In this document: piece after piece, positions 31,588 to 32,805 of the stretch
Layout of the letters: each line of letters begins with the position of its first letter
How positions within the stretch are numbered: position 1 is the stretch's first letter
NCBI RefSeq assembly: GCF_003790525.1
Contig: NZ_CP033632.1
From: Escherichia coli
Lineage (GTDB): Bacteria > Pseudomonadota > Gammaproteobacteria > Enterobacterales > Enterobacteriaceae
Strand: one strand, 5' to 3'
DNA: 64,000 bases
Made by a program: the position numbers and the translations under genes
The notes under the pieces: generated by a model
What the model was told of the DNA's origin: nothing
The model's database searches: none
Seen by the model: the letters and a program-made list of their open reading frames with translations, nothing else

Positions 31588-32805
31588 TTATCCTTTCCGT
31601 TTACGGGCTTCGTTAATTTGTGTCTCAAGAATGCTTCGCGCCTGCGCGGTGGCAGCGGCCTTGTCCATTCCCTGACTCATGAAAAACTTTATGAGGTTGT
31701 TCGCCTGCGTTTGCAGGGCTTTTTTGAGAGCGTCGGCTTCAGCGCGAGCCTGGGCTTCCCTTACCAGCGAGGCTTTTAGTTCGGCATTCTTCCTGTTTGC
31801 CGTGGTGCGAGCTTTTTTTAACAACCGGCGAACGTTGTCCGTGGCGCTATCTTTGGCGCGTAGTTTTTTGCCTAATGCATCCTGAGATTTCAGATATAAC
31901 TCATACTCACGCGCCGCTTTAGCCTGATCCGTCGTTGTTGTCCGGTTGCGCGCGAGCGATTTAGCCAGTTCGCCTTTGAAATAGGTTGTTGTCTTCCGCT
32001 TGTCATCGCCGAAGGCCACCTGTTCAGCTGCTTTTTCCAGGGCAATAATGATGGCCTTGTGCCATGTGGGAGACTGAAAACGCGTCATAGCGTGCAACAC
32101 ATGTTTGCAGGCTACACCAGTCAGATCAGGGTTGCGGATTTTGGGGAATGCATACTCTTTTGGCGGCGCGACAGCATAGTTACCAGCCGTGGCCATATAA
32201 CGATACCAGTATTGATGGCGTCCACAATCACAGTCGAAAGATACCCGGCCCTTGCAGAGATCGGCAGCGATTCGGGCTTTTTTCGCACCGTCTTCAGCAA
32301 TTTCCTCAACGGCTTTATCCCATTCCTCAAATCGAATTCTGACACGGTGATGCTGGTGGACCGACTCATCCGAGGCATTAACAGATATCAATGCAAGGTT
32401 GTGTTTTAGCCCGAGGAATGTCGCGGCTTTGATCCCTGTGCCATCAGAAACCTTGTTGTTAGCGCGTTTTATATCAATGCTGGTGGACTGCGCCACCAGC
32501 TGAGCATAGGTAATGCCGGGTACCGTGCTCTTGAATTTGGTTTTATGAGCCTGCCTTGAGGTGTTGAAACTGCGTATATCTTCGGGCGTAAAGTAGGTGC
32601 CATCTTTCTTTTTCCCAAGGCTGAGGAATGCCTCAAGTTCGCGGTTACGCATCCCCATAATCCTTGGGGTGAGTGTACGTCGCGCGTTTCGCCGATTCTG
32701 ACGCTGCTGTTTACGGATAAGATCGAAGACCTTGTTAAAGTCTTTTGCACTTAATCCATCAGTCTGATAGCGACCAAGGTTGTCGCGAGCATATTCAGTT
32801 GGCAT
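31588..32805 (-). CDS. Phage protein with SWIM-type zinc finger and basic coiled-coil C-terminus
   Basis: CDCGRHQYWYRY...ACKHVLHAM (CxC...CxH) motif; 405 aa. Confidence 0.45.
   Translation of the reverse strand: MPTEYARDNLGRYQTDGLSAKDFNKVFDLIRKQQRQNRRNARRTLTPRIMGMRNRELEAFLSLGKKKDGTYFTPEDIRSFNTSRQAHKTKFKSTVPGITYAQLVAQSTSIDIKRANNKVSDGTGIKAATFLGLKHNLALISVNASDESVHQHHRVRIRFEEWDKAVEEIAEDGAKKARIAADLCKGRVSFDCDCGRHQYWYRYMATAGNYAVAPPKEYAFPKIRNPDLTGVACKHVLHAMTRFQSPTWHKAIIIALEKAAEQVAFGDDKRKTTTYFKGELAKSLARNRTTTTDQAKAAREYELYLKSQDALGKKLRAKDSATDNVRRLLKKARTTANRKNAELKASLVREAQARAEADALKKALQTQANNLIKFFMSQGMDKAAATAQARSILETQINEARKRKG

What the first reader, a model, noticed from the sequence alone, without database searches (positions are those of the whole stretch)
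31588..32805. SWIM zinc-finger protein embedded in the baseplate operon
Seen in sequence: CDCGRHQYWYRY...ACKHVLHAM fits a CxCxnCxH SWIM finger, followed by a long basic coiled-coil tail. SWIM fingers are unusual in virion assembly operons.
Basis: seen in the sequence. Interest (0 to 1): 0.25.

Follow-up and report, generated by a model that had tools for sequence, protein, structure and literature searches.

The report
Phage P1 gp25: hidden zinc finger
The flagged gene is the long-known but never explained phage P1 gene 25 ("tail stability"); it does carry a strictly conserved, unusually stretched SWIM-like zinc-finger motif plus a very basic helical tail, and it is the only protein of its operon that has no place in the recent cryo-EM models of the P1 particle.

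Summary
Window 31588-32805 (minus strand) encodes a 405-aa protein 99.5-100% identical to phage P1 gp25 ("tail stability"). It contains C192-x-C194-x38-C233-x-H235, followed by long helices (residues 293-403, net charge +16).

The motif is not chance. It appears in 2.1e-4 of composition-matched shuffles. All 242 full-length homologues keep it, and in a 135-sequence alignment reaching 22% identity the four ligands are among only nine invariant residues.

Support for "SWIM" is real but sub-threshold:
- P1 gp25 itself has no Pfam hit.
- SWIM is the only Pfam family hit recurrently across the family (20 of 51 members, best E 0.008).
- The spacer (36-41 residues) is highly conserved, aromatic and basic.

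The operon is not purely baseplate. It encodes gp26 (baseplate plug), gp25, gp7 (connector stopper), gp24 (tail terminator), gp6 (hub) and gp5 (spike). The 26-25-7 order is conserved in distant phages.

gp25 is essential by amber mutants, barely detected in virions, absent from all P1 cryo-EM models, and the most basic protein in the window (+34).

[quoted passage not shown] Zinc binding and mechanism are untested. Moderate interest; a new variant of a known kind.

The parts
31588..32805 (-). Gene 25 CDS (405 aa + stop), product gp25 'tail stability'; 45.8 kDa, pI 10.08, net charge +34
   Evidence: ORF. Nucleotide identity to P1, SJ46 and P7 gene 25 is 98-100%, and protein identity is 99.5-100%. 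AF234172 annotates it 'gp25, tail stability'. PHROG 1722 matches full length at E 8e-227. Charge and pI.
32620..32805 (-). N-terminal basic arm (residues 1-62), Arg-rich helix RKQQRQNRRNARR, near-invariant R38 and an LTP motif
   Evidence: Net +7 over residues 1-60. Helix 19-38 in the model. Conservation profile.
31927..32619 (-). Globular core (residues 63-293): three beta-strands, a helical insert, the strand carrying CxC, a conserved helix-loop spacer, and the CKH helix
32101..32232 (-). Putative zinc site C192-x-C194-x38-C233-x-H235 with the conserved spacer GRHQYWYRY..FPKIRNP..G
   Evidence: Translation. C192, C194, C233, K234, H235, P221, N225 and G230 are invariant (numbering +1). The motif is kept in 242 of 242 homologues. 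Shuffle probability 2.1e-4.
31591..31929 (-). C-terminal helical tail (residues 293-405): an 84-residue helix plus a terminal helix; basic, poorly conserved in sequence, variable in length
   Evidence: Secondary structure. The tail has positive net charge in 99% of 135 family members, mean +13.6. Weak heptad pattern.
32815..33192 (-). Gene 26 (gp26, baseplate plug, T4 gp53-like), immediately upstream; its stop is 9 nt before the gene 25 ATG, with an AAGGGA ribosome-binding site between them
   Evidence: Solved structures 9ay5 and 9vzk. A gp26-like gene lies upstream of gp25 homologues in distant loci.
30856..31584 (-). Gene 7 (gp7, hexameric stopper of the head-tail connector), starting 3 nt after the gene 25 stop; pI 4.09, net -33
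   Evidence: PDB 9ums. PMC12810830. A gp7 homologue lies directly downstream of gp25 homologues in L002, L003, L101, L102 and L103. Charge.
30084..30869 (-). Gene 24 (gp24, tail terminator), same operon and the same classical 'tail stability' class
   Evidence: Annotation mapped from AF234172. PMC10304247.
33222..33240 (-). Late promoter LP26 driving 26-25-7-24-6-5 (position transferred from the P1 reference annotation; the C1 operator O26 is at 33265-33281)
   Evidence: AF234172 features mapped by a gap-free 98.7% alignment, window = 40806 - locus position. Not independently tested.

Best explanation
This is phage P1 gene 25.

Shown:
- Its product is a three-part protein: an Arg-rich N-terminal arm, a globular core, and a long basic helical tail.
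- The core carries an invariant Cys-x-Cys...Cys-x-His site. This is best read as a divergent SWIM-type zinc finger whose spacer has grown into a 36-41-residue, highly conserved aromatic/basic helix-loop (GRHQYWYRY...FPKIRNP).

Inferred:
- A structural zinc ion pins this spacer between the beta-strand bearing CxC and the helix bearing CxH. That would create a rigid binding surface.
[quoted passage not shown] These are its operon neighbours and share its classical 'tail stability' phenotype.
- It acts either as a very low-copy, non-symmetric component or as a transient assembly factor. Either would explain why it is essential, barely detectable in purified virions and invisible in symmetrised cryo-EM maps.
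- Its extreme positive charge (+34) probably mediates binding to acidic partners, such as gp7 (net -33) or the negatively charged tail-tube lumen, or to DNA at the neck.
For: Identity: 98-100% nucleotide and 99.5-100% protein identity to P1 gp25. GenBank annotates it 'tail stability'.

Zinc finger:
- Ligands are invariant in 242 of 242 homologues and are among only 9 invariant columns of 135 sequences.
- Shuffle probability is 2.1e-4.
- SWIM is the only recurrent Pfam hit: 20 of 51 members.
- Secondary structure fits a beta...alpha finger.

Role at the neck or tail end:
- The operon is 26-25-7-24-6-5.
- gp7 is the stopper and gp24 the terminator in cryo-EM.
- Genes 7, 24 and 25 share the 'tail stability' label.
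- The 26-25-7 order is conserved in distant lineages, and 25 and 7 are tightly coupled with a 3-nt gap.

Low copy or transient:
- 2 peptides, 8.4% coverage in virion LC-MS, although 26 tryptic peptides are detectable in principle.
- gp25 is never modelled or mentioned in three P1 cryo-EM studies.
- The PDB holds P1 Gp7 and Gp26 but nothing related to gp25.

Essential: amber mutants exist, and the CRISPRi 'non-essential' call is attributed by its authors to a failed roadblock.

Charge: most basic of 60 ORFs in the window, with gp7 the most acidic. The whole family is basic, +16 to +51.
Against: - I could not inspect model coordinates, so the ligand geometry is unverified. Zinc binding is untested.
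- The neck or tail-completion role rests on a 1983 phenotype label that I could not read in the original, and on gene neighbourhood. No interaction data exist.
- The charge-complementarity idea is weakened because gp7 homologues in distant loci lack P1 gp7's acidic N-terminal extension, although they are still net -16 to -23. Most virion proteins are acidic anyway.
- In the Rb1/ABMM1 clade the downstream gene is not detectably a gp7 homologue.
- The two MS peptides could be contamination.
Confidence: 0.5

Rival explanations
1. gp25 is a DNA-end-binding 'pilot' protein. One or two copies would sit on the packaged DNA end in the portal or neck channel, would be needed for head-tail joining, and would be injected with the DNA. 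This would make it a functional analogue of T4 gp2, and possibly the unidentified protein that joins the ends of abortively transduced DNA in P1 transduction.
For: - gp25 has pI 10.08 and net +34; T4 gp2 has pI 10.12 and net +29.
- In T4, gene 2 lies with genes 4 (head closure) and 3 (tail terminator) directly beside gene 53, the orthologue of P1 gene 26. This parallels 26-25-7-24.
- Trace abundance in virions and invisibility in symmetrised maps fit a 1-2 copy protein.
- Lys/Ala-rich tails in family members are DNA-binding-like, and one homologue was even auto-annotated as the nucleoid protein MvaT.
Against: - There is no sequence similarity to T4 gp2 by profile comparison, and T4 gp2 has no Cys.
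- P1 viral DNA needs RecBCD and Chi for cyclisation (PMC12315714), so its ends are not simply sealed.
- No DNA-binding data exist.
- The phenotype label concerns tails, not heads or DNA stability.
- Several other internal P1 proteins (the Dar system) are equally good candidates for the end-joining protein.
Confidence: 0.12
2. gp25 is purely a non-structural assembly chaperone or catalyst, like T4 gp51 or gp26 for the hub. It would never be part of the particle, and the two MS peptides would be carry-over.
For: - Absent from every cryo-EM model.
- Weakest MS signal of the virion list.
- The authors of PMC9024508 themselves suggest chaperone or cofactor roles for gp7, gp16 and gp25.
Against: - gp7 and gp16, placed in the same 'weak signal' group, later proved to be true structural proteins.
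- gp7 also gave only 2 peptides although it is present at 6 copies.
- The conserved extreme basicity and the 110-residue helical tail are not typical of catalytic chaperones (inference).
Confidence: 0.2
3. gp25 is a capsid-assembly (scaffold-like or size-determining) protein rather than a tail protein.
For: - In the Rb1/ABMM1 clade the homologue lies two genes upstream of the major capsid gene.
- It has a long helix ending in a helix-turn-helix-like hairpin, reminiscent of scaffolding proteins (own knowledge).
- No separate scaffold is known for P1.
Against: - The classical phenotype class is tail stability.
- The gp23 N-terminal 124 residues are the accepted scaffold candidate.
- In P1 and five other lineages the gene is flanked by baseplate and neck genes, not the capsid gene.
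- In the Rb1 clade the capsid gene is simply followed by sheath and tube genes, i.e. a fused structural block.
Confidence: 0.04
4. The CxC...CxH cluster is not a SWIM finger. It would be either another kind of metal or redox site in an unrelated fold, or a nucleic-acid-binding regulator module that merely mimics the SWIM spacing.
For: - No Pfam hit for the P1 protein.
- The spacer, 36-41 residues, is longer than in canonical SWIM fingers (own knowledge).
- Foldseek found nothing.
Against: - SWIM was the a priori hypothesis, and it is the single recurrent family among 24,736 Pfam models.
- It is also the top structural hit among 48,164 chains.
- The CKH(V/I)L helix matches positions 21-36 of the SWIM profile.
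Confidence: 0.1

Closest known systems
Phage P1 gp25 (AAQ14053.1; PHROG 1722 'tail protein'; NCBI 'phage tail protein' / 'tail stability protein')
   Same: It is this protein: 99.5-100% amino-acid identity, and the same operon position between genes 26 and 7.
   Different: Nothing differs in sequence terms. What is added here is the zinc-finger reading, the family-wide conservation and the synteny. The reachable literature gives it no fold or role (HHpred 'None >50%').
SWIM zinc finger (Pfam PF04434; e.g. ZSWIM8, PDB 9rwz chain M)
   Same: - The CxC...CxH ligand pattern.
- CxC at a strand end and CxH at a helix start.
- A C-K-H-[VI]-[LI] helix matching positions 21-36 of the profile.
- Recurrent sub-threshold Pfam hits.
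   Different: - The spacer is 36-41 residues, against roughly 6-25 in canonical SWIM fingers (own knowledge). It is itself the most conserved part of the protein.
- P1 gp25 scores below every Pfam threshold.
- The context is a phage virion morphogenesis operon, not SNF2 ATPases, transposases, MEKK or ubiquitin ligases.
T4 gp2 DNA end protector (with gp4 head closure and gp3 tail terminator, next to gene 53)
   Same: - Strongly basic (pI about 10.1 for both).
- Encoded next to the gp53/gp26 wedge or plug gene and next to neck/terminator genes.
- Low-copy, and not part of symmetric virion models (the last point is own knowledge for T4).
   Different: No detectable sequence similarity, and no Cys/His site in T4 gp2. 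The genes are arranged divergently in T4 and co-directionally in P1.
PHROG 4315 (unknown function) in Acinetobacter phage ABMM1, Xanthomonas phage Rb1 and related IMG/VR contigs
   Same: A homologous family (E 1e-46 to the P1 protein) with the same zinc motif. It has the same upstream gp26-like gene and a small acidic downstream protein.
   Different: - About 30% identity, with shorter tails.
- The downstream gene (PHROG 4597) is not detectably gp7-like.
- The block is fused to the capsid-sheath-tube genes.
- The Rb1 copy is mis-annotated as 'transcriptional regulator MvaT'.

Membership tests
SWIM zinc finger (Pfam PF04434) | CxCxnCxH ligand signature | tested here: met
   C192-x-C194-x38-C233-x-H235. 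The signature is invariant in 242 of 242 homologues with n=36-41. The spacer is longer than in canonical members (own knowledge).
SWIM zinc finger (Pfam PF04434) | Score at or above the Pfam gathering cut-off (19.6 bits) | tested here: not met
   P1 gp25 has no hit at E<=10. Of 51 members, 20 hit SWIM with a best E-value of 0.008. The only bit score printed for a member, P0258 at 11.2 bits, is below the cut-off.
SWIM zinc finger (Pfam PF04434) | Fold: beta-strand(s) bearing CxC followed by an alpha-helix starting at CxH; structural similarity to solved SWIM domains | tested here: inconclusive
SWIM zinc finger (Pfam PF04434) | Binds one zinc ion through the four ligands | not testable with these tools
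   Needs metal analysis of purified protein or an experimental structure.
P1 gp25 family (PHROG 1722) | Full-length homology to P1 gp25 and position between genes 26 and 7 in the LP26 late operon | tested here: met
   PHROG 1722 matches at E 8e-227 over residues 1-405. Nucleotide identity is 98-100%. Annotation and synteny.
Ordered structural component of the P1 virion | Modelled in cryo-EM maps or deposited in PDB entries of P1 | tested here: not met
   No PDB sequence match for gp25 or its family profile, while P1 Gp7 and Gp26 are present. gp25 is not mentioned in PMC12810830, PMC10304247 or the 2025 bioRxiv baseplate study.
T4 gp2-type DNA end protector | Sequence or profile homology to T4 gp2 | tested here: not met
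   hhalign of A1 and A2 against T4 gp2 gives probability 0.1%, E 0.4-0.7.
T4 gp2-type DNA end protector | Binds double-stranded DNA ends, is injected, and protects against RecBCD | not testable with these tools
   Only indirect evidence is available: similar pI and charge and analogous gene neighbourhood.
Phage scaffolding protein | Required for procapsid assembly; encoded between portal/protease and major capsid genes | tested here: inconclusive
   The gene lies near the capsid gene only in the Rb1/ABMM1 clade, not in P1 or five other lineages. The phenotype label concerns the tail.

The most novel reading that the evidence does not exclude
gp25 is the long-unidentified virion protein of P1 that rides on the DNA end. 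It would dock the packaged end at the stopper/terminator channel (hence the 'tail stability' and head-tail joining defect). It would then be injected and hold or protect DNA ends in the recipient. That would make it the protein that circularises abortively transduced DNA: a zinc-finger functional analogue of T4 gp2 and Mu N.
Probability: 0.1. Interest if true: 0.7.

Novelty: new variant of a known kind. Interest (0 to 1): 0.35.

Why it matters
P1 is a workhorse of bacterial genetics, and by 2026 its particle had been modelled almost completely by cryo-EM. gp25 is the remaining essential morphogenesis protein of the 26-25-7-24-6-5 operon with no fold, no location and no mechanism.

Recognising an invariant zinc site, a conserved aromatic/basic surface and a conserved 26-25-7 gene trio gives concrete handles. 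These include point mutants of four residues, metal analysis, and targeted searches for asymmetric density at the neck.

If the protein acts on the DNA end, it would also bear on the old question of which protein joins the ends of abortively transduced DNA. More generally, it would extend the SWIM finger to phage virion assembly, and it shows that a long, conserved insertion can hide the domain from standard profile searches.

Tried and rejected
- **Plus-strand reading of the interval:** full of stops. The gene is on the minus strand.
- **Direct family assignment:**
  - No Pfam hit for gp25 and no NCBIfam hit.
  - PDB sequence searches with the protein and with the family profile gave only spurious low-complexity hits.
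- **Whole-model fold searches:**
  - Foldseek against the PDB found nothing (best E 0.34).
- **T4 gp2 homology:** rejected by hhalign.
- **Basic gp25 tail pairing with gp7's acidic N-terminal extension as a conserved feature:** weakened, because the extension is missing in gp7 homologues of L101-L103.
- **PHROG 4597 (downstream neighbour in the Rb1/ABMM1 clade) as a gp7 homologue:**
  - BLASTP, hmmsearch and hhalign were all non-significant; only a short HP(D/N)xF motif aligns.
  - No PDB relative either.
- **Scaffold-protein idea:** kept only as a low-probability rival.
- **Diverse loci from the family alignment:** the first scan returned 80 near-identical P1 copies, and a scan with P0161 found nothing. 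A scan with the Rb1 protein worked.
- **Original papers:** Walker & Walker 1983 and Lobocka 2004 are not held in the library, so the exact EM phenotype of 25am could not be verified.
- **CRISPRi 'non-essential' call for gene 25:** not used as evidence, since the authors attribute it to an ineffective roadblock.
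Full report
**1. What is at the coordinates**

The interval 31588-32805 contains one long ORF, on the minus strand: ATG at 32805, stop at 31588-31590, 405 aa. 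The plus strand is closed by many stops. The DNA is 98-100% identical to gene 25 of phage P1, P7, SJ46, RCS47 and other P1-like phage-plasmids. The protein is 99.5-100% identical to P1 gp25.

In the reference annotation (AF234172) the product is "gp25, tail stability". The gene is the second of the late operon LP26: 26-25-7-24-6-5. A gap-free 98.7% alignment lets the reference features be transferred to the window:

| Feature | Window coordinates (minus strand) |
|---|---|
| LP26 late promoter | 33222-33240 |
| gene 26 | 32815-33192 |
| gene 25 | 31588-32805 |
| gene 7 | 30856-31584 |
| gene 24 | 30084-30869 |
| gene 6 | 29066-30082 |

Gene 25 starts 9 nt after the stop of gene 26, behind an AAGGGA ribosome-binding site. 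It ends 3 nt before the ATG of gene 7, whose ribosome-binding site lies inside the end of gene 25.

**2. The observation**

The quoted peptide is present: residues 192-235, CDCGRHQYWYRYMATAGNYAVAPPKEYAFPKIRNPDLTGVACKH, DNA 32101-32232(-). The pattern is C192-x-C194-x38-C233-x-H235, and three of the protein's four cysteines are in it.

- A CxC-x6-60-CxH pattern arises in 42 of 200,000 shuffles of the same sequence, i.e. 2.1e-4.
- The protein family is large. There are 755 hits in the 90%-clustered database and 407 clusters at 50% identity with E<=1e-3.
- Every one of the 242 full-length members I collected keeps CxC-x(36-41)-CxH.
- In an alignment of 135 members reaching 22% identity, only nine columns are invariant. 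They are G97, C192, C194, P221, N225, G230, C233, K234 and H235 in true numbering; my query dropped Met1, so tool numbering is one lower.

The tail is also real. AlphaFold2 with this alignment gives a very confident model (mean pLDDT 95.6, pTM 0.81) with an 84-residue helix (293-376) and a second helix (381-403). The segment 260-405 has net charge +16. A heptad pattern exists but is modest.

**3. Is it a SWIM finger?**

Evidence for:
- *Ligand pattern and secondary structure.* CxC closes a beta-strand and CxH opens a helix. Three further strands precede them.
- *Pfam scan of 51 family members at a permissive threshold.* SWIM (PF04434) is hit by 20 members (best E 0.008). No other of the 24,736 families is hit by more than two. 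The matched part is the CKH helix, profile positions 21-36.

Evidence against, or limits:
- P1 gp25 itself has no Pfam hit even at E<=10.
- The one member score printed (11.2 bits) is below the 19.6-bit cut-off, and the best member E-value is only 0.008.
- Foldseek finds nothing.
- The spacer is 36-41 residues, where canonical SWIM fingers have roughly 6-25 (own knowledge).
- I could not inspect coordinates to check ligand geometry.

My reading is a divergent SWIM-type finger. Its spacer has expanded into a helix-loop (GRHQYWYRY.AT.G....P.E..FPKIRNP.L.G) that is the most conserved segment of the whole protein. That segment is therefore probably the functional surface. HHpred in 2022 returned "None >50%" for gp25, and a full-text search linking SWIM fingers with phage virions found nothing relevant. 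The assignment seems not to be in the literature I can reach.

**4. Context: what the neighbours are now known to be**

- The 2022 virion proteome found gp25 with 2 peptides (8.4% coverage) and could give it no role.
- The 2023 tail structure assigned gp24 as the tail terminator.
[quoted passage not shown] These include gp26 (six-fold baseplate plug), gp7 (hexameric stopper of the portal-adaptor-stopper connector), gp24, gp6 and gp5. It never mentions gp25.
- A 2025 preprint on the tail-baseplate complex likewise lacks gp25.
- The PDB copy contains P1 Gp7 (9ums) and Gp26 (9ay5, 9vzk) but nothing matching gp25 or its family profile.

gp25 is therefore the only product of this operon without a place in the particle. 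The operon is not simply "baseplate": it spans baseplate, neck and terminator.

Gene 25 counts as essential. It was discovered through amber mutants, and the authors of the CRISPRi screen attribute its "non-essential" score to an ineffective roadblock.

**5. Family-wide properties and synteny**

*Charge.* All 135 aligned members are strongly basic, with net charge +16 to +51 (mean +32). The tail is positive in 99%. In the window, gp25 (pI 10.08, +34) is the most basic of 60 ORFs of at least 100 aa. Its immediate downstream neighbour gp7 (pI 4.09, -33) is the most acidic.

*Gene order.* Order is conserved well beyond P1.
- In five independent distant loci (L002, L003, L101, L102, L103; gp25 identity about 25-39%), the next gene encodes a gp7 homologue, with BLASTP E from 2e-32 to 1e-7, some links transitive.
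- In L101 and L102 the preceding gene is a gp26 homologue. In L103 one gene intervenes.
- L101 continues with terminator-, hub-, spike- and PAAR-like genes, as in P1.
- In a more distant clade the order is TerS-TerL-three unknowns-gp26-like-gp25-like-PHROG 4597-major capsid-sheath-gp21-like-PmgG-like. This clade comprises Acinetobacter phage ABMM1, Xanthomonas phage Rb1 and 15 IMG/VR contigs.
- PHROG 4597 proteins are small and acidic like the gp7 core. Homology to gp7 could not be shown, because only a short HP(D/N)xF motif aligns.

**6. Most likely mechanism**

*Shown.* The protein is an essential late protein with an invariant Cys3His site, extreme basicity and a long helical tail. It is co-transcribed and tightly coupled with the stopper gene, and it is absent from ordered virion density.

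[quoted passage not shown] It does so either as a very low-copy, non-symmetric component or as a transient factor.

The MS data are compatible with about 1-3 copies or fewer. gp25 showed 2 of 26 detectable tryptic peptides. gp7 showed 2 of 7 at 6 copies per virion, and gp6 showed 4 of 18 at 3 copies. Possible partners for its positive charge are:
- the acidic stopper gp7;
- the negatively charged tube lumen;
- the DNA end in the neck channel.

I put about 0.8 on "zinc-binding SWIM-like module" and about 0.5 on the neck or tail-completion role as stated.

**7. Rivals**

(a) *A DNA-end-binding, injected protein analogous to T4 gp2.*
- In T4, genes 3-2-4 (tail terminator, DNA end protector, head closure) lie directly beside gene 53, the gp26 orthologue.
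- T4 gp2 has nearly the same pI and charge.
- P1 abortive transductant DNA is reported to have its ends joined by a protein.
- Against: there is no sequence similarity, and P1 viral DNA depends on RecBCD and Chi.

(b) *A pure chaperone never present in the particle.* This is plausible. However, gp7 and gp16, from the same "weak signal" group, turned out to be structural.

(c) *A capsid scaffold-like protein.* This is suggested only by proximity to the capsid gene in one clade and by the helical hairpin. The phenotype label and the gp23 N-terminal scaffold domain argue against it.

(d) *Not a SWIM finger at all.* This remains possible given the sub-threshold scores.

**8. Novelty and verdict**

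The gene is long known. The zinc-finger reading, its strict conservation, the expanded conserved spacer and the conserved 26-25-7 trio appear to be new.

I rate it a new variant of a known kind: a SWIM-type finger with a long conserved insert, in a phage morphogenesis protein. Interest is moderate (0.35). It is not a surprise on the scale of a new system. It does mark the last unexplained essential product of a nearly solved model virion, and it offers direct experiments.

The most novel reading not excluded is that gp25 is the P1 DNA-end protein of abortive transduction. I give this about 10%.

Noticed in passing
window 24565-25660 (ORF 24815-25642, +): The tciA-tciB-tciC region of reference P1 does not align here. 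It is replaced by a 275-aa predicted lipoprotein (signal MKKTLISAAIILGSLCLTGC) with a weak HflC/SPFH-like match (E 9e-6, far below cut-off).
   Followed up: partly
window ~45500-62800, and 20196-21395: This P1-like element carries an IS-rich accessory region. It holds five copies of a 240-aa IS6-family (IS26-like) transposase ORF (46503-47225, 49525-50247, 52368-53090, 55140-55862, 62029-62751) and two identical 399-aa IS91-family transposases (20196-21395, 57970-59169). It also holds an IS4-family transposase (45549-46469) and an APH(3')-II aminoglycoside phosphotransferase (60946-61740).
   Followed up: partly
window 30856-31584 (-), gp7 residues 1-80: P1 gp7 has an extremely acidic N-terminal extension (net -25 over 80 residues). 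This extension is absent from gp7 homologues in distant loci L101-L103, which align only to residues ~81-234. Which residues of it are ordered in the cryo-EM stopper model was not checked.
   Followed up: partly
L005 8809-9888 (Xanthomonas phage Rb1, PQ569993.1): The gp25 homologue is annotated 'transcriptional regulator MvaT / nucleoid associated protein'. This is probably an artefact of its Lys/Ala-rich tail. It matches PHROG 4315 and 1722 and carries the CxC...CxH motif.
   Followed up: yes
L004 5699-6247; L005 9893-10396; L086 10083-10574 and relatives (PHROG 4597): A small acidic protein of unknown function always follows the gp25 homologue in the Rb1/ABMM1 clade. It shares only an 'HP(N/D)xF..V/I..R/Y' motif, at the same relative position, with the gp7 stopper family. 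It may be a very divergent stopper.
   Followed up: partly
window 30084-30887 (-): The mechanical ORF for gene 24 starts at a TTG at 30887 (267 aa). The P1 reference annotates the start at the position equivalent to 30869 (261 aa), overlapping the end of gene 7.
   Followed up: no
window beyond 39280: Alignment to the P1 reference (AF234172) stops at window 39280, inside or next to the pmgT region. The sequence beyond it differs from reference P1. ORFs there were listed but not identified.
   Followed up: no
L103 1538-3937: In a metagenomic relative, a 799-aa protein upstream of the gp26/gp25/gp7 block carries a Hom_end_hint (intein/homing endonuclease) Pfam domain. It may be an intein-containing terminase large subunit.
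   Followed up: no
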